A DNA stretch of 4,160 bases from a virus (Duplodnaviria > Heunggongvirae > Uroviricota > Caudoviricetes), in the IMG/VR virus record IMGVR_UViG_3300030379_000187, one strand, 5' to 3'. The position numbers and the translations under genes were made by a program. The notes below the pieces were generated by a model. That model did not search any database. It was not told where the DNA came from and saw only the letters and a program-made list of their open reading frames with translations. Below, piece by piece: positions 1 to 3,884 of this stretch. Position 1 is the stretch's first letter. Each line of letters starts with the position of its first letter.

Positions 1-205
1 CGTCAAAACGACTGGCGATATCGGCTTTGGAAAACACCAGCACCTGTTCACCAAATTCAGCCATGTACTGATTCCGTGTCTTATCTTCATCATCAACAAC
101 GATAAAAATTTTCCCGGTATAGCCAGCACGACGCAACGTCCGGTAAGTCAGAACTTTGTCCGGTCGCCCGTGAGTCAGAATAAAGGCGCAAAAATCATCA
201 CGCAT
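1..205 (-). CDS. Hypothetical phage protein, 5' end only (first ~68 codons; ORF continues past the window start)
   Basis: Minus-strand ATG at 205-203 preceded by a strong SD (GGAGGAGGA, + strand 209-217). The frame stays open to position 1, giving MRDDFCAFILTHGRPDKVLTYRTLRRAGYTGKIFIVVDDEDKTRNQYMAEFGEQVLVFSKADIASRFD... The ATG overlaps the TGA stop (200-198) of the upstream ORF as ATGCGTGA. Absent from the ORF track only because it has no stop inside the window. Function not recognised. Confidence 0.55.
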   Translation of the reverse strand, partial: MRDDFCAFILTHGRPDKVLTYRTLRRAGYTGKIFIVVDDEDKTRNQYMAEFGEQVLVFSKADIASRFD

Positions 206-572
206 ATTCCTCCTCCTCACCACCATGCATGATCTCCACCATGCGCTGCGTCATCCGGACAAATCCATTTTCAATAGCCTGCTGATAATCAATGATCACC
301 AGCGCCGACTCCTCGAAAAAACACTGAATTTCAGAGGGGGCGTGAGCGTAATAGTCCGCAATTCTGCTGAAATTAAACACCGTGTGACGTTCTGCCGCAC
401 ACAGGAGGAATTTCTCAATATCAGGCTCAAGGGACGCCGAACGTATCCGGCTGAGTTTTCGTATCGTCGTACAGTTCACTGATATCCGGTTTACCGCCCG
501 ACGGCTCATAAACAGGCGTATCAATTTTCGTCGTATACGGCTCCTCCTCATTTCCTGTACCGGGCAAAACAT
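198..572 (-). CDS. Small ORF of unknown function with uncertain start; possibly a frameshifted remnant or an overlapping gene (by position may correspond to ydaY of Rac)
   Basis: ORF-track frame 198-572. The first ~49 codons overlap the acidic 3' end of the ParB-like gene and translate as an Arg/Ser-rich string typical of out-of-frame reading, so only about 206-426 looks like real coding. No ATG lies between the upstream stop (427) and codon 107; the only in-frame ATGs (572, 551, 509) need an overlap of 83 nt or more, and the alternative is a GTG at 380-378 without a clear SD. Its stop overlaps the start of the next gene, which argues that it is translated. Confidence 0.4.
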   Translation of the reverse strand: MFCPVQEMRRSRIRRKLIRLFMSRRAVNRISVNCTTIRKLSRIRSASLEPDIEKFLLCAAERHTVFNFSRIADYYAHAPSEIQCFFEESALVIIDYQQAIENGFVRMTQRMVEIMHGGEEEEYA

Positions 573-978
573 CCGTCAACAGTTCATCAATTTCTGTCGG
601 GATGAAGCCTGTCAGGGAGACATCAAAATCAGCATTGATTAGGTCCGACAGCTCCATCCGCAACAGATCTTCATCCCAGCCAGCATTCATCGGCAGGCGA
701 TTATCTGCCAGGCGGTACGCCTTTTTCTGCTCATCCGTCAGGCCAGACAGAACAATGACCGGAACAGAATCCATTTTGAGCATTTCAGCCGCCATAACAC
801 GACCGTGACCCGCAATAATTTCGCCCTTTTCGTCAATCAGCACCGGATTAGTCCAGCCGAATTGCTTAATACTTTCTACCAGTTGTGCCACCTGCTCAGG
901 GCTGTGCGTCCTGGCGTTGTGCGCATACGGTGACAATTCTTGTAATGGGCGATAGACTATCTTTAATTTCTCGCTCAT
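427..978 (-). CDS. ParB N-terminal (ParB/sulfiredoxin-like) nuclease domain protein, 183 aa, with an acidic low-complexity C-terminal tail
   Basis: ATG at 978-976 with a weak SD (AAGG, 4 nt upstream). The N-terminal ~95 aa (KIVYRPLQELSPYAHNARTHSPEQVAQLVESIKQFGWTNPVLIDEKGEIIAGHGRVMAAEMLKMDSVPVIVLSGLTDEQKKAYRLADNRL) has the layout of the ParB N-terminal domain. The position just downstream of trkG matches where ynaK sits in Rac, but I assign that name only by recalled synteny. Confidence 0.85.
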   Translation of the reverse strand: MSEKLKIVYRPLQELSPYAHNARTHSPEQVAQLVESIKQFGWTNPVLIDEKGEIIAGHGRVMAAEMLKMDSVPVIVLSGLTDEQKKAYRLADNRLPMNAGWDEDLLRMELSDLINADFDVSLTGFIPTEIDELLTDVLPGTGNEEEPYTTKIDTPVYEPSGGKPDISELYDDTKTQPDTFGVP

Positions 979-990
979 ACAGCCTTGCTT

Positions 991-1029
991 TATGAATAAA
1001 ACGCACCCCAGCAGCCAGTGCTACTGGGG
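991..1029 (-). terminator. Candidate intrinsic terminator downstream of trkG
   Basis: Arms at + 1006-1014 and 1021-1029 form a 9-bp stem that is fully paired only in the minus-strand RNA, where position 1012/1023 becomes a G-U wobble (it is a C-A mismatch in the plus-strand RNA). It is followed on the minus strand by UGCGUUUUAUU. The U-tract is separated from the stem by 4 nt, so this is a weak terminator. Confidence 0.3.
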
Positions 1030-1115
1030 ACGGAGGTGTTGCTGGTAAAGTTAGGTATTGGATCAATGAGTGAGTCAACATAATATTAAACTCACAATTA
1101 TAAATCAGCCATATA

Positions 1116-2710: not shown

Positions 2711-3175
2711 TTACTTTAAACACTGCTCGGTTATGTATTGCTGAGCACCTTCAAGTTGGGCCTGCATCATTACCAGTCGTTCCCGGAGGGTGAAATAATC
2801 CCGTTCAGCGGTGTCTGCCAGTCGGGGGGAGGCTGCATTATCCACGCCGGAGGCGGTGGTGGCTTCACGCACTGACTGACAGACTGCTTTGATGTGCAAC
2901 CGACGACGACCAGCGGCAACATCATCACGCAGAGCATCATTTTCAGCTTTCGCATCAGCTAACTCCTTCGTGTATTTTGCATCGAGCGCAGCAACATCAC
3001 GCTGACGCATCTGCATGTCAGTAATTGCCGCGTTCGCCAGCTTCAGTTCTCTGGCATTTTTGTCGCGCTGGGCTTTGTAGGTAATGGCGTTATCACGGTA
3101 ATGATTAACAGCCCATGACAGGCAGACGATGATGCAGATAACCAGAGCGGAGATAATCGCGGTTACTCTGTTCAT
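2711..3175 (-). CDS. Rz: Rz-type i-spanin (inner-membrane spanin subunit), 154 aa from the ATG at 3175
   Basis: N-terminal TM anchor ([20 protein letters not shown]) followed by a charged, coiled-coil-like periplasmic domain, and an Rz1 ORF embedded in the +1 frame. The ATG at 3175-3173 overlaps the endolysin TGA (3174-3172) as ATGA, with GGGG 6 nt upstream. The ORF-track start at 3187 is a GTG and is less likely. Confidence 0.85.
2770..2955 (-). CDS. Rz1: Rz1-type o-spanin, outer-membrane lipoprotein, 61 aa, embedded out of frame within Rz
   Basis: ATG at 2955-2953 with a near-consensus SD (AAGGAG, 7 nt upstream). Signal peptide plus lipobox ([19 protein letters not shown]|C) and a proline-rich mature part ([16 protein letters not shown]). 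Lies wholly inside the Rz ORF in a different frame, the classic Rz/Rz1 arrangement. Confidence 0.85.
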
Positions 3176-3669
3176 TGCTGACCCCACAAACAGATTTCAC
3201 GCTCAATCTCACGACGAGTCATGAGACCTTTCCATTGCTTACCGCCAGCATATGTCCAGCGACGTAGCTGATCACATGCGCCTTTGATATCGCCCTGGTT
3301 TATTTTGCGAAGAAGCGTCGATGTTCTGAAATTGCCAGCACCCACGTTGTAAACGAATGAGTAAAGAGCGCCGCGCATTGTTTCCGGTATATCGACTTTG
3401 ATGTACGGGTTAATTTGTCTGGCGACCGTGGCAAGGTCTTTATTCAAGAGTGTTTTGCATTCTGCTTTGGTATACGTTTTACCGAGCATGATGTCTTTTC
3501 CTGTATGCCCGTGACATACAGTCCATACACCAACAATATCTTTGTATGGTATGTAGCTGACACCTTCCAGACCATCGTTACCACTTGGGCCAGTGATTAA
3601 CACTGATGCTATAGCAATTGCTCCGCCACCAATAGCAGCAGCAACGGCTTTTCGTAATGATGGAGGCAT
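3172..3669 (-). CDS. R: SAR endolysin (phage-21 R-type lysozyme with N-terminal signal-anchor-release domain), 165 aa
   Basis: N-terminal Gly/Ala-rich weakly hydrophobic segment ([20 protein letters not shown]) typical of a SAR domain, then a lysozyme domain with Glu35, Asp44 and Thr50 at the catalytic-triad positions of the phage 21 endolysin. Near-identical to my recollection of phage 21 R and E. coli prophage lysozymes RrrD/RrrQ. The ATG at 3669-3667 overlaps the holin stop (TAATG), with GAGAGG upstream. Confidence 0.93.
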
Positions 3670-3884
3670 TATTCACCTCTCGCAGCCTTGCGCTTATCTT
3701 CTTTAATCTTGAAATAAAGGTTTGTCAGGTACGTCAGCAGGCCAAATACCAGGCTACCCAGCACACCTATTGCTGCCCACTGTGAGGGCGTGACTTTATC
3801 GAGCAGCTGTAAAAACCAGTAACCGGCACTACCTGCTGAGGTGCCATAGGCGACACCCGTTGTTAACTTATCCATGGATTTCAT
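3669..3884 (-). CDS. S: Class II pinholin (phage-21 S-type), 71 aa, with MKSM dual-start motif (antiholin from Met1, holin from Met4)
   Basis: Two TMDs: a Gly/Ala/Ser-rich TMD1 ([19 protein letters not shown]) and TMD2 ([23 protein letters not shown]), then a basic C-terminal tail ([13 protein letters not shown]). ATG codons at 3884-3882 and 3875-3873 are separated by Lys-Ser, as in S21 71/68. SD GAGGTGGGG lies directly upstream. Closely matches recalled phage 21 S and EssD-type holins. Confidence 0.9.

What the first reader, a model, noticed from the sequence alone, without database searches (positions are those of the whole stretch)
1..978. Uncharacterised three-ORF cluster: ParB-like nuclease domain protein, an ORF without a start, and a translationally coupled third gene
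This is the only part of the window I cannot assign to a known function. A 183-aa ParB-like nuclease domain protein with an acidic tail (427-978) is followed by coding-looking sequence in a +1-shifted frame (206-426) that has no ATG start of its own. That ORF's stop then overlaps the start of a third gene (ATGCGTGA at 198-205) behind a strong SD. Such tight coupling suggests the three are co-expressed and possibly work together. Phage ParB-like domain proteins are reported alongside DNA-modification and packaging functions, so a role in DNA processing is a hypothesis, not something the sequence shows.
Basis: partly seen in the sequence, partly recalled or inferred. Interest (0 to 1): 0.55.

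Follow-up and report, generated by a model that had tools for sequence, protein, structure and literature searches.

The report
Frameshifted ParB partner of phage glycosyltransferase
The "three ORFs" are two prophage genes: a ParB-like adaptor gene split in this strain by an 11-base deletion, and the start of a glycosyltransferase gene of the DNA-modifying TAGT family; the pair is widely conserved in front of phage DNA-packaging genes, but its function has never been tested.

Summary
They make up two genes, not three.

- **One broken gene.** Every comparable complete E. coli genome (957 records) has 11 more bases (TCAGGAGCTGA) at window 454/455. With them, ORF1 (427-978) and the "ORF without a start" (198-452) form one 263-aa ParB/Srx-like gene. 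Its stop overlaps the start of the next gene (ATGCGTGA). Apart from the deletion, window 1-1115 is identical to strain S30. The startless ORF is the orphaned C-terminal domain (CTD), the best-conserved part of the protein.
- **The third gene.** It is cut at codon 68 by the window edge. It encodes a 310-aa GT-A glycosyltransferase of Pfam family TAGT (TET-associated glycosyltransferase).
- **Conservation.** The ParB-like/TAGT pair lies just upstream of the terminase genes. This holds in E. coli, Yersinia, Lactobacillus phages, a haloarchaeal virus and metagenomic phages with at least four terminase types. No TET/JBP dioxygenase was found near it.
- **Partner domain.** TAGT always has the CTD next to it. 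The ParB nucleotide-binding domain is optional, and most variants lacking it start with a β-clamp-binding-like peptide (MKQxNLF).

Likely function, inferred only: a tethered, DNA-directed glycosyltransferase module, disabled or deregulated here.

The parts
427..978 (-). Truncated ParB/Srx-like gene (183 codons plus stop). It holds the nucleotide-binding domain (NBD, residues 1-~135, with GHGR at 57-60), the acidic linker and the conserved Y-x-x-K-x-x-x-P-x-Y-E-P motif. It is in frame with the intact protein up to Q176, followed by 7 out-of-frame codons.
   Evidence: ORF list. Pfam ParB_N 29.5 bits. Identical to S30 WP_001291094.1 residues 1-176. AF2 model and Foldseek hits to ParB, Noc and KorB.
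451..455 (.). Junction of an 11-bp deletion (minus-strand TCAGGAGCTGA or an equivalent placement). The position is ambiguous within a 4-nt direct repeat (CTGA on the + strand, TCAG on the minus strand). The deletion removes codons E177-L178-I179 plus 2 nt, causing a frameshift.
   Evidence: Alignment with S30 and CFSAN061771. Zero mismatches over window 1-1115 once the 11 nt are removed. All 957 E. coli records covering at least 80% of the junction query match at 80-90% identity, and the 15 listed span 91 nt for the 80-nt query; none has the deletion.
198..452 (-). It encodes the helical C-terminal domain (S180-A263 of the intact protein) plus stop TGA 198-200.
   Evidence: Translation identical to S30 residues 180-263. 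Matches CTD profile positions 34-116. This is the most conserved region of the family across bacterial and archaeal viruses.
1..205 (-). First 68 codons of a TAGT-family GT-A glycosyltransferase gene (310 aa when complete), cut by the window edge.
   Evidence: Identical to S30 WP_001204037.1 residues 1-68. Full-length protein matches Pfam PF20691 TAGT at E = 7.6e-35 and PHROG 842 at E = 1e-103. GT-A fold model.
198..205 (-). ATGCGTGA start/stop overlap. In the intact allele it joins the end of the 263-aa ParB-like gene to the TAGT start.
   Evidence: Sequence. Similar overlaps between the two genes occur in S30, Yersinia, phi jlb1, HHTV-2, c5 and metagenomic loci.
209..218 (-). Shine-Dalgarno sequence GAGGAGGAGG, 3 nt upstream of the TAGT ATG. 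It lies within the acidic-tail codons (GGEEEEYA) of the ParB-like gene.
   Evidence: Sequence read-out.
1006..1029 (-). Intrinsic-terminator-like hairpin plus T-run after trkG, 27 nt upstream of the ParB-like start. It marks the upstream boundary of the cassette.
   Evidence: Consensus scan only.

Best explanation
Window 1-978 holds two late-operon genes of a Rac-like lambdoid prophage, not three.

**Gene 1** is normally a 263-aa ParB/Srx-like protein. It consists of:
- an N-terminal ParB-CTPase-fold nucleotide-binding domain (NBD) of the subtype also found fused to phage DNA methyltransferases;
- an acidic disordered linker carrying an invariant YxxKxxxPxYEP peptide;
- a roughly 80-aa helical C-terminal domain (CTD).

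In this window an 11-bp microhomology-flanked deletion shifts the frame after Q176. Only a 183-aa NBD-plus-linker fragment is made, and the CTD coding sequence is left without a start. This part is shown.

**Gene 2** is a TAGT-family GT-A glycosyltransferase with an invariant DDD motif. Its start overlaps the natural stop of gene 1. This part is also shown.

**Inferred mechanism.** The motif-plus-CTD module is the obligate partner of the glycosyltransferase. The N-terminal part of the partner places the enzyme on DNA. In cassettes next to the terminase genes, that part is an NTP-gated ParB-type domain. In NBD-less variants found in replication modules, it is a β-clamp-binding-like peptide. The enzyme would then transfer a sugar from a nucleotide sugar to phage DNA, or to something bound to it, late in infection around packaging. 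The acceptor is unknown, because no hydroxymethyl-pyrimidine-producing enzyme accompanies the pair.

In this strain the partner is broken. The glycosyltransferase, which keeps its own strong ribosome-binding site, would be untethered or inactive.

My confidence is about 0.95 for the two-gene, frameshift and TAGT assignment. It is about 0.4 for the tethered DNA-glycosylation mechanism.
For: **Frameshift**
- The best E. coli matches span 1126 nt against 1115, and 4171 against 4160.
- The alignment places an 11-nt gap at window 454/455.
- Removing the 11 nt leaves zero mismatches with S30.
- All 957 E. coli records covering at least 80% of the junction query match at only 80-90% identity, so none has the deletion; the 15 listed each span 91 nt for the 80-nt query.
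- The 183-aa product is not on record anywhere.
- S30 annotates one 263-aa CDS whose end overlaps the next gene.

**One gene across the family**
- Full-length homologs at 54-100% identity and about 100% coverage occur in Salmonella, Citrobacter, Klebsiella, Serratia, Pantoea, Yersinia and Hafnia.
- NBD and CTD lie in one ORF directly upstream of TAGT in 93 of 95 loci. The window is the only locus where the CTD is split between frames.
- The same architecture is found in Lactobacillus phages phi jlb1 and c5 and in halovirus HHTV-2.

**ParB fold**
- Pfam ParB_N.
- GHGR aligns with GERR of Spo0J.
- AF2 NBD pLDDT about 90; Foldseek hits to ParB, Noc, KorB and PadC at E about 1e-6.
- The NBD matches the N-terminal module of type II DNA methyltransferases (PADLOC E = 2e-38; PHROG 498).

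**TAGT**
- Pfam 121 bits.
- Invariant DDD at 102-104.
- GT-A fold with pTM 0.78.
- TM-score 0.75-0.84 to viral TAGT models.
- Characterised family members act on DNA-borne acceptors (T2/T6 enzyme; PMC13216743, PMC13390438).

**Position in front of the packaging genes**
- The pair sits upstream of Terminase_2/6N, Terminase_4/TerL_ATPase, GpA and Terminase_3 genes.
- This matches the "ParB-terminase large subunit loci" that Iyer and colleagues predicted to modify phage DNA during packaging (PMC4738411).

**Partner logic**
- A CTD profile finds many stand-alone proteins of about 131 aa without an NBD, again overlapping TAGT.
- Of 87 such proteins, 59 carry Qxx[LMIV]F at the N-terminus, against 0.48 expected by chance. 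The β-clamp consensus is QL[S/D]LF (PMC3716654).
- One such pair lies between a DNA polymerase A gene and a β-clamp gene, with a sugar epimerase gene alongside.

**Precedent**
- Phage ParB proteins built of an NBD plus a CTD activate a DNA-modifying dioxygenase on dsDNA (PMC13229309).
Against: - No enzyme that makes 5hmC or 5hmU (TET/JBP, or a thymidylate-synthase-like hydroxymethylase) was found near any ParB-fused pair. None is annotated in the whole S30 prophage or the whole 31.8-kb phage c5 genome. The usual TAGT acceptor is therefore missing.
- GREB1, a TAGT relative, glycosylates a protein (PMC7968844, abstract).
- No binding, NTPase or transferase activity has been measured for this pair.
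- CTD-TAGT contact is inferred from gene adjacency only.
- The clamp-motif reading is a sequence resemblance. The N-terminal peptide could instead be a remnant of the "SLTGF" segment of the fused proteins.
- The deletion could be an assembly or laboratory artefact rather than a natural allele.
- The terminase genes themselves lie outside the window.
Confidence: 0.7

Rival explanations
1. The three ORFs are real separate genes, or ORF1 and ORF2 are joined by programmed ribosomal frameshifting, so the arrangement in the window is the functional design.
For: The second frame is open and coding-like and has no start. This is the arrangement a frameshift site would give.
Against: No other locus has the two-frame arrangement. 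All 957 E. coli records that cover the junction, and 93 of 95 loci from many phage lineages, have one continuous ORF. The difference is an 11-nt deletion within a 4-nt repeat in otherwise identical DNA. No slippery site is conserved, because the overlap does not exist in relatives. The CTD frame has no convincing internal start with a Shine-Dalgarno sequence.
Confidence: 0.02
2. The 11-bp deletion is not a natural allele but a sequencing, assembly or laboratory artefact. The source organism then has the ordinary intact 263-aa gene.
For: The deletion is absent from all 957 E. coli records that cover at least 80% of the junction query. The truncated 183-aa protein is absent from a 15-billion-protein collection. 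The surrounding 1.1 kb is otherwise identical to S30.
Against: An 11-nt loss between 4-nt direct repeats is a typical replication-slippage deletion, not a typical sequencing error. Prophage genes in this locus decay often. K-12 keeps only an 87-codon remnant, and about 650 of the 1590 matching genomes cover less than 80% of the region.
Confidence: 0.15
3. The glycosyltransferase does not act on DNA. It glycosylates a protein (for example a packaging or virion protein, or the partner's own conserved T/S/Y-rich peptide) or an envelope polymer. The ParB-like protein would then be a regulator or substrate adaptor.
For: No source of 5hmC or 5hmU accompanies the pair. GREB1, a TAGT relative, is a protein O-GlcNAc transferase (PMC7968844). 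The closest solved folds are generic GT-A enzymes acting on sugars, proteins or small molecules. Pyle et al. note similarity of phage GT-A enzymes to the teichoic-acid enzyme TarP.
Against: The partner's NBD is the subtype fused to DNA methyltransferases. NBD-less partners carry a β-clamp-binding-like motif and sit among polymerase, helicase and clamp genes. Characterised phage TAGT enzymes act on DNA-borne acceptors (PMC13216743). The protein has no signal peptide or membrane segment that would suggest envelope work (sequence; by eye only).
Confidence: 0.25
4. The ParB-like protein is a nuclease, partition protein or packaging-site factor that works with the terminase, and its adjacency to the glycosyltransferase is incidental.
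For: The historic annotation is "ParB-like nuclease". The gene lies immediately before the terminase genes in many phages, and directly after the cos site in phage c5.
Against: The CTD half follows TAGT, not the terminase. NBD-less partners overlap TAGT in replication modules with no terminase gene adjacent. The pair accompanies at least four unrelated terminase families. No parA gene is nearby, and the match to the partition-ParB model TIGR00180 is below its cut-off (38.5 against 58.45 bits).
Confidence: 0.06

Closest known systems
E. coli ParB/Srx family N-terminal domain-containing protein WP_001291094.1 (263 aa, strain S30 and many others) and K-12 YnaK (b1365, 87 aa)
   Same: Same gene. 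Window residues 1-176 and 180-263 are identical to WP_001291094.1. K-12 ynaK follows trkG in Rac in the same way.
   Different: The window allele lacks 11 nt and is split into a 183-aa product and an untranslated CTD. K-12 YnaK is a different, much larger truncation, fused to the tail-region gene ydaY, with the glycosyltransferase, terminase and head genes lost.
TAGT family (Pfam PF20691): T2/T6 β-glucosyl-HMC-α-glucosyltransferase, phage 5mYOX-associated GT-A enzymes, kinetoplastid base-J glucosyltransferase, GREB1
   Same: Strong profile match, GT-A fold, DxD-type DDD motif, and structural similarity to viral TAGT models. RefSeq names the protein "GREB1-related protein".
   Different: No TET/JBP dioxygenase or hydroxymethylase was found nearby, so the acceptor cannot be assumed to be 5hmC, 5hmU or glucosyl-hmC. 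This subfamily always has the CTD partner directly upstream.
5mYOX-associated phage ParB activators (O'Toole et al., PNAS 2026, PMC13229309)
   Same: A phage ParB homolog with an NBD plus a C-terminal domain, lacking an evident DNA-binding domain, encoded next to a DNA-modifying enzyme. Both domains are needed for function in the published system.
   Different: The partner enzyme here is a glycosyltransferase, not a thymine dioxygenase. No activity data exist for this pair.
Phage ParB-terminase large subunit loci (Iyer, Aravind and colleagues; NAR 2013, as described in PMC4738411 and PMC8256090)
   Same: A ParB-like gene plus a DNA-modifying enzyme gene placed immediately before the terminase genes, predicted to modify phage DNA during packaging.
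   Different: That is a computational prediction, and I could not read the 2013 paper. The CTD module, its stand-alone form and the clamp-motif variants do not appear in the papers I could read.
Phage ParB-DNA methyltransferase fusion proteins (PHROG 498; PADLOC MTase_II; ParB-N6_N4_MTase in PMC12704722)
   Same: The NBD (residues about 3-144) is closely related to their N-terminal module (E = 1e-50 and 2e-38).
   Different: Here the NBD is not fused to the enzyme. It is fused to a linker and CTD encoded next to a separate enzyme.
Canonical chromosome/plasmid ParB (Spo0J, Noc, KorB)
   Same: Shared CTPase-fold NBD with the GxxR arginine retained.
   Different: No parA gene, no ParA-binding peptide, no recognisable HTH family match, and a score below the TIGR00180 cut-off. 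It is not a partition protein.

Membership tests
ParB/Srx N-terminal domain (ParB-CTPase fold, PF02195) | Profile match above the curated cut-off | tested here: met
   29.5 bits (window ORF) and 28.9 bits (intact protein) against a cut-off of 26.3.
ParB/Srx N-terminal domain (ParB-CTPase fold, PF02195) | ParB-type fold of the domain | tested here: met
   AF2 pLDDT about 90 for residues 11-95. Foldseek hits to ParB-CDP, Noc, KorB, PadC, sulfiredoxin and SerK.
ParB/Srx N-terminal domain (ParB-CTPase fold, PF02195) | Box II GxxR phosphate-binding motif | tested here: met
   GHGR at 57-60 aligns with GERR of T. thermophilus Spo0J. GH[GTL]R is conserved across the family.
ParB/Srx N-terminal domain (ParB-CTPase fold, PF02195) | NTP binding and hydrolysis | not testable with these tools
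   Needs DRaCALA or ITC with an R60A control.
Canonical partition ParB (TIGR00180) | Full-length match, HTH DNA-binding domain, adjacent parA | tested here: not met
   38.5 bits against a cut-off of 58.45, covering the NBD only. No parA in any neighbourhood.
5mYOX-dependent ParB activator system (PMC13229309) | NBD plus CTD architecture without an obvious DNA-binding domain | tested here: inconclusive
   The model shows an NBD, a disordered linker and a helical CTD. The CTD has no Pfam family. Some Foldseek alignments extend over the helical part of ParB and KorB, so a degenerate HTH cannot be excluded.
5mYOX-dependent ParB activator system (PMC13229309) | Cognate TET/JBP-family dioxygenase encoded next to the ParB | tested here: not met
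   No PF12851 hit in any examined neighbourhood, nor in the annotations of the S30 prophage or the phage c5 genome.
TAGT glycosyltransferases (PF20691) | Profile match above the curated cut-off | tested here: met
   121.1 bits against 27.5 for the full-length S30 protein, whose first 68 residues equal the window's. The window fragment matches TAGT profile positions 1-68.
TAGT glycosyltransferases (PF20691) | GT-A fold with an acidic DxD-type metal/nucleotide-sugar motif | tested here: met
   pTM 0.78. GT-A hits include K4CP, GpgS, SpsA and glycogenin. DDD 102-104 is invariant in 51 and 21 sequences. This part of the protein lies outside the window.
TAGT glycosyltransferases (PF20691) | Genomic association with TET/JBP or another hydroxymethyl-pyrimidine source | tested here: not met
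   None found near ParB-fused pairs. Only a faint Thy1 hit, near one NBD-less pair.
TAGT glycosyltransferases (PF20691) | Sugar transfer to a DNA-borne acceptor | not testable with these tools
   Needs nucleoside LC-MS/MS or an in vitro UDP-sugar transfer assay.
ParB-terminase-locus DNA-modification cassette (Iyer/Aravind) | ParB-like gene plus DNA-modifying enzyme gene immediately 5' of the terminase genes | tested here: met
   S30 (identical DNA): ParB-like, TAGT, 69-aa ORF, TerS, TerL. The same order holds in Yersinia, phi jlb1, c5 and metagenomic phages. The terminase genes themselves lie beyond the window edge.
Programmed ribosomal frameshift gene | Two-frame arrangement conserved in homologs | tested here: not met
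   Homologs have a single ORF. The window is the only split case among 96 loci and 957 genome records.

The most novel reading that the evidence does not exclude
The ParB-like/TAGT pair may be a TET-independent, tethered DNA-glycosylation system not previously described as such. A conserved partner module of about 115 aa (the YxxKxxxPxYEP peptide plus the helical CTD) would be the obligate subunit of this TAGT subfamily. It would couple the enzyme to a DNA-sliding platform. In packaging-module cassettes such as the E. coli one, the platform would be the partner's own ParB CTPase-type domain. In replication-module cassettes, it would be the β sliding clamp, bound through an N-terminal MKQxNLF peptide. 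The acceptor would be something other than 5hmC or 5hmU. The intact module is present in roughly one in six complete E. coli genomes.
Probability: 0.3. Interest if true: 0.75.

Novelty: new member of a known kind. Interest (0 to 1): 0.4.

Why it matters
For this window, the result removes an apparent oddity. A coding ORF with no start is simply the 3' half of a gene broken by a private 11-bp deletion, in a prophage locus that decays often.

It also shows that K-12 YnaK, and the many RefSeq "ynaK pseudogene" calls, are fragments or mis-annotations of a 263-aa two-domain protein.

The intact ParB-like/TAGT cassette is common in E. coli. All 957 of the 5426 complete genomes that cover at least 80% of the 80-nt query around the deletion site have the undeleted form. 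The cassette is conserved as far as Lactobacillus phages and a haloarchaeal virus, yet it has no tested function and no obvious acceptor base.

It is a tractable system for two questions:
- whether ParB-like proteins direct DNA-modifying enzymes at packaging, a prediction from 2013 confirmed so far only for thymine dioxygenases;
- what a TAGT enzyme does when no TET/JBP partner is present.

Tried and rejected
- **Exact-protein look-up** of the 183-aa product found nothing on record.
- **Programmed frameshift or three genes** was rejected by the comparisons.
- **A hidden dioxygenase.** I scanned neighbours of five divergent loci against Pfam and read the annotations of the whole S30 prophage and the whole phage c5 genome. 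No TET/JBP was found.
- **Anti-phage defence system.** TAGT has no PADLOC hit, and the NBD hits only the ParB-like module of MTase_II.
- **NCBIfam.** No model matches TAGT or the 69-aa ORF.
- **Solved structures.** A sequence search of the PDB with a TAGT profile gave no significant match.
- **The CTD against Pfam.** Only sub-threshold noise. The whole-model search is dominated by the NBD.
- **Promoter and terminator scan.** No more promoter-like sites than in shuffled sequence, and one plausible trkG terminator.
- **Literature.** The first search was swamped by partition-ParB papers. Iyer et al. 2013 is not held under its DOI or PMC id, so it is cited only through papers that describe it. The ynaK/ydaY searches returned no functional study among the listed results.
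- **Internal starts for the orphaned CTD frame.** None has a convincing Shine-Dalgarno sequence.
Full report
**Context.** The window is a stretch of a Rac-like lambdoid prophage of E. coli, with every gene on the minus strand. In order these are:
- holin (3669-3884);
- lysozyme (3172-3669);
- Rz, with Rz1 embedded in it (2711-3187 and 2770-2955);
- the potassium transporter gene trkG (1116-2591);
- the region of the finding.

**Observation.**
- A 183-aa ATG ORF lies at 427-978 and matches Pfam ParB_N above the curated cut-off.
- Downstream is open, coding-like sequence in another frame with no start of its own, ending at TGA 198-200.
- The octamer ATGCGTGA at 198-205 overlaps that stop with the ATG of a third ORF.
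- The third ORF is preceded by GAGGAGGAGG and runs off the window after 68 codons.

**What the startless ORF is.**
- Megablast against 5,426 complete E. coli genomes finds the region in 1,590 of them. The best matches span 1,126 nt for the 1,115-nt query, and 4,171 nt for the whole 4,160-nt window.
- The alignment shows 11 extra bases (minus strand TCAGGAGCTGA) in the other genomes between window positions 455 and 454.
- With those 11 nt removed, strain S30 and window 1-1115 differ at no position. The deletion can be placed anywhere within a 4-nt direct repeat, as expected for a slippage deletion.
- In S30 the region is annotated as a single 263-aa "ParB/Srx family N-terminal domain-containing protein" (WP_001291094.1). 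The end of that gene overlaps the start of the next gene.
- The window's ORF1 equals residues 1-176 of that protein. The deletion removes E177-L178-I179 plus two bases. The startless ORF equals residues 180-263.
- An 80-nt query centred on the junction matches 957 genome records at 80% or more coverage. All match at only 80-90% identity, and the 15 listed each span 91 nt for the 80-nt query, which is the 11-nt gap. None carries the deletion.
- The 183-aa product is not on record in a collection of about 15 billion proteins.

The allele is therefore private to the source of this window, or an artefact. The two ORFs are one broken gene.

**Conservation of the intact gene.**
- Full-length homologs of 54-100% identity and about 100% coverage occur in Salmonella, Citrobacter, Klebsiella, Serratia, Pantoea, Yersinia and Hafnia.
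- The part encoded by the startless ORF is the most conserved part. An alignment that adds the proteins of Lactobacillus phages phi jlb1 and c5, halovirus HHTV-2 and three metagenomic phages keeps the following elements:
  - a GH[GTL]R motif in the N-terminal domain;
  - a Y-x-x-K-x-x-x-P-x-Y-E-P peptide in the linker;
  - a C-terminal block resembling "FLxxAAxRHxVFxFxxIAxYYAxA...SALVIIDxxxAIxNGFV".
- I built profiles of the N-terminal domain, the C-terminal domain and the downstream enzyme. I then searched six-frame ORFs of the window and the 95 other loci fetched by then, which include 80 IMG/VR viral contigs. Of the 95 other loci:
  - in 93, both domains lie in one ORF directly upstream of the enzyme gene;
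  - one is cut by a contig end;
  - one has only the C-terminal domain.
- Only the window has the C-terminal profile split between two frames.

**The third gene.**
- The complete S30 homolog is 310 aa, and its first 68 residues are identical to the window's.
- It matches Pfam PF20691, TET-associated glycosyltransferase (TAGT), at E = 7.6e-35, and PHROG 842 at E = 1e-103. RefSeq calls it "GREB1-related protein" in some genomes.
- A DDD motif at 102-104 and an R-x-H-H motif at 258-261 are invariant from E. coli to the haloarchaeal virus.
- The AlphaFold model has pTM 0.78 and a GT-A fold. It resembles chondroitin polymerase, GpgS, SpsA and glycogenin among solved structures. It also resembles predicted viral TAGT proteins at TM-scores of 0.75-0.84.
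- No solved structure of the family was found by sequence.
- According to two 2026 papers, the T2/T6 β-glucosyl-HMC-α-glucosyltransferase belongs to this Pfam family (PMC13216743, PMC13390438).

**The ParB-like protein.**
- The model shows a confident N-terminal domain (residues 1-134), a disordered acidic linker (136-154) and a confident helical C-terminal domain (157-235).
- The N-terminal domain matches ParB-CDP, Noc, KorB, PadC, sulfiredoxin and serine-kinase structures. Its GHGR aligns with GERR of Spo0J.
- It is not a partition ParB. It scores below the TIGR00180 cut-off, and no parA gene is nearby.
- Its closest relatives at domain level are the N-terminal modules of phage DNA methyltransferases (PHROG 498, E = 1e-50; PADLOC MTase_II, E = 2e-38).
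- The C-terminal domain matches no Pfam family.

**Neighbourhood.**
- In S30 the order is lysis genes, trkG, ParB-like, TAGT, a 69-aa ORF, terminase small subunit, terminase large subunit, portal.
- The same ParB-like/TAGT pair, with overlapping stop and start, lies just before the packaging genes in several other phages:
  - a Yersinia prophage;
  - metagenomic phages with HK97-type, lambda GpA-type, Terminase_3-type and Terminase_6N-type terminases;
  - Lactobacillus phage phi jlb1;
  - Lactobacillus phage c5, where the two genes are the first after the cos site.
- This is what Iyer, Aravind and colleagues call "ParB-terminase large subunit loci", predicted to modify phage DNA during packaging (PMC4738411; also cited in PMC8256090). 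I could not read the original 2013 paper.
- No TET/JBP dioxygenase or hydroxymethylase appears in any of these neighbourhoods. None is annotated in the complete S30 prophage or the 31.8-kb c5 genome.

**An unexpected extension.**
- A profile of the linker motif plus the C-terminal domain retrieved 2,619 proteins. The top hits are stand-alone proteins of about 131 aa with no ParB domain.
- In every context examined they overlap the start of a TAGT gene. No ParB N-terminal domain lies within 7 kb, except in one enteric variant that keeps only the last third of the domain.
- The invariant partner of this TAGT subfamily is therefore the motif-plus-CTD module. The ParB domain is optional.
- Of 87 such proteins, 59 carry Q-x-x-[L/M/I/V]-F upstream of the linker motif, 45 of them at residue 3 (MKQINLFG, MKQTNLFG and similar). 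Shuffled sequences give 0.48 on average, and only 1 of 100 ParB-fused proteins has the pattern.
- The pattern matches the β-sliding-clamp-binding consensus QL[S/D]LF (UmuC QLNLF, Pol II QLGLF; PMC3716654).
- These variants sit in replication modules, not packaging modules. One lies beside a DnaB helicase and RecT. One lies between a family-A DNA polymerase and a β-clamp gene, with an NAD-dependent sugar epimerase alongside.

**Mechanism.**
- Shown: there are two genes, one frameshifted; the folds and motifs are as described; the pairing and its genomic positions are conserved.
- Inferred:
  - the partner module binds the glycosyltransferase;
  - its N-terminal part puts the enzyme on DNA, through a ParB-type nucleotide-gated domain in packaging cassettes or through the β clamp in replication cassettes;
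  - the enzyme glycosylates phage DNA or something bound to it.
- The nearest experimental precedent is the phage ParB (NBD plus CTD, no evident DNA-binding domain) that activates its cognate thymine dioxygenase specifically on dsDNA (PMC13229309).
- The main weakness is the missing acceptor. These phages have no known route to 5hmC or 5hmU. Pyle et al. caution that glycosyltransferases without such neighbours are less obviously DNA-modifying.
- I rate a non-DNA acceptor at about 0.25.

**Consequence for this window.**
- The 183-aa product keeps the N-terminal domain and the YxxKxxxPxYEP peptide but lacks the helical domain.
- The helical domain has no credible start codon.
- Translational coupling to the glycosyltransferase gene is lost, although that gene keeps its own strong ribosome-binding site.
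- The cassette is most likely inactive or deregulated in this strain. This fits the frequent decay of the locus: K-12 retains only an 87-codon remnant, ynaK, fused to tail-region DNA.

**Verdict.**
- The finding resolves into a mutated copy of an annotated, computationally predicted, but experimentally uncharacterised phage cassette. That makes it a new member of a known kind, with modest interest for the window itself.
- The broader module, especially the obligate partner domain and its two alternative N-terminal tethers, is worth an experiment.

Noticed in passing
L001:6198-6989 vs L002:6198-6989 (homologous to window 198-978): Identical DNA is annotated differently by PGAP. In strain S30 it is an intact 263-aa CDS. 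In CFSAN061771 it is a "ynaK" pseudogene "missing C-terminus" covering only the first 86 codons. Many records list "none" under the 3' half. This looks like an annotation artefact driven by the truncated K-12 YnaK.
   Followed up: yes
L100:5378-5981 (E. coli K-12 MG1655, Rac): K-12 ynaK (87 aa) directly abuts ydaY, which in S30 lies between the tail tube and tape-measure genes. K-12 Rac has therefore lost the ParB-like CTD, TAGT, the terminase, portal and head genes in one internal deletion.
   Followed up: partly
P0241-P0360; loci L096, L097, L101, L102, L103: Stand-alone TAGT partner proteins of about 131 aa lack the ParB domain. In 59 of 87 they begin with a β-clamp-binding-like peptide (MKQxNLF), against 0.48 expected by chance. 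The five loci examined lie among replication genes or away from any adjacent terminase gene.
   Followed up: partly
L102:4673-10276: Gene order: DNA polymerase A, TAGT partner (132 aa), TAGT, NAD-dependent sugar epimerase/dehydratase, β sliding clamp (DNA_pol3_beta). A faint ThyX-like hit lies 5 kb downstream. This could be a replication-coupled DNA glycosylation module with its own sugar-nucleotide tailoring.
   Followed up: no
L089:5280-9263: In one metagenomic phage an N6_N4 DNA methyltransferase (with a NUMOD1 domain) sits between TAGT and the Terminase_3-type large subunit. Two DNA-modifying enzymes therefore share one ParB-terminase locus.
   Followed up: no
L002:5086-5295 (just beyond the window's left edge); L004:8720-8968; L099:8339-8590: A small ORF of 69-83 aa overlaps the 3' end of TAGT and precedes the terminase small subunit gene. 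In E. coli it matches part of a "terminase small subunit" PHROG (309, E = 1e-17). It recurs in Yersinia and in another enteric phage.
   Followed up: partly
window 1006-1029 (minus strand): A 10-bp GC-rich hairpin plus T-run follows trkG, 27 nt before the ParB-like start. It looks like the trkG insert's own terminator inside the late operon. Late transcripts would need Q-type antitermination to read through it.
   Followed up: no
L099:6923-7480: An enteric-phage variant of the partner (159 aa, seen in 8 samples) keeps only the last third of the ParB-domain profile plus the linker and CTD, and still overlaps TAGT. It is either a natural N-terminally shortened form or another decay product.
   Followed up: partly
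window 2711-3187 and 2770-2955 (minus strand): The Rz-like spanin gene contains the Rz1-like lipoprotein ORF embedded in another frame. This is the ordinary lambdoid arrangement. The lysis cassette looks intact here, unlike in K-12 Rac.
   Followed up: no
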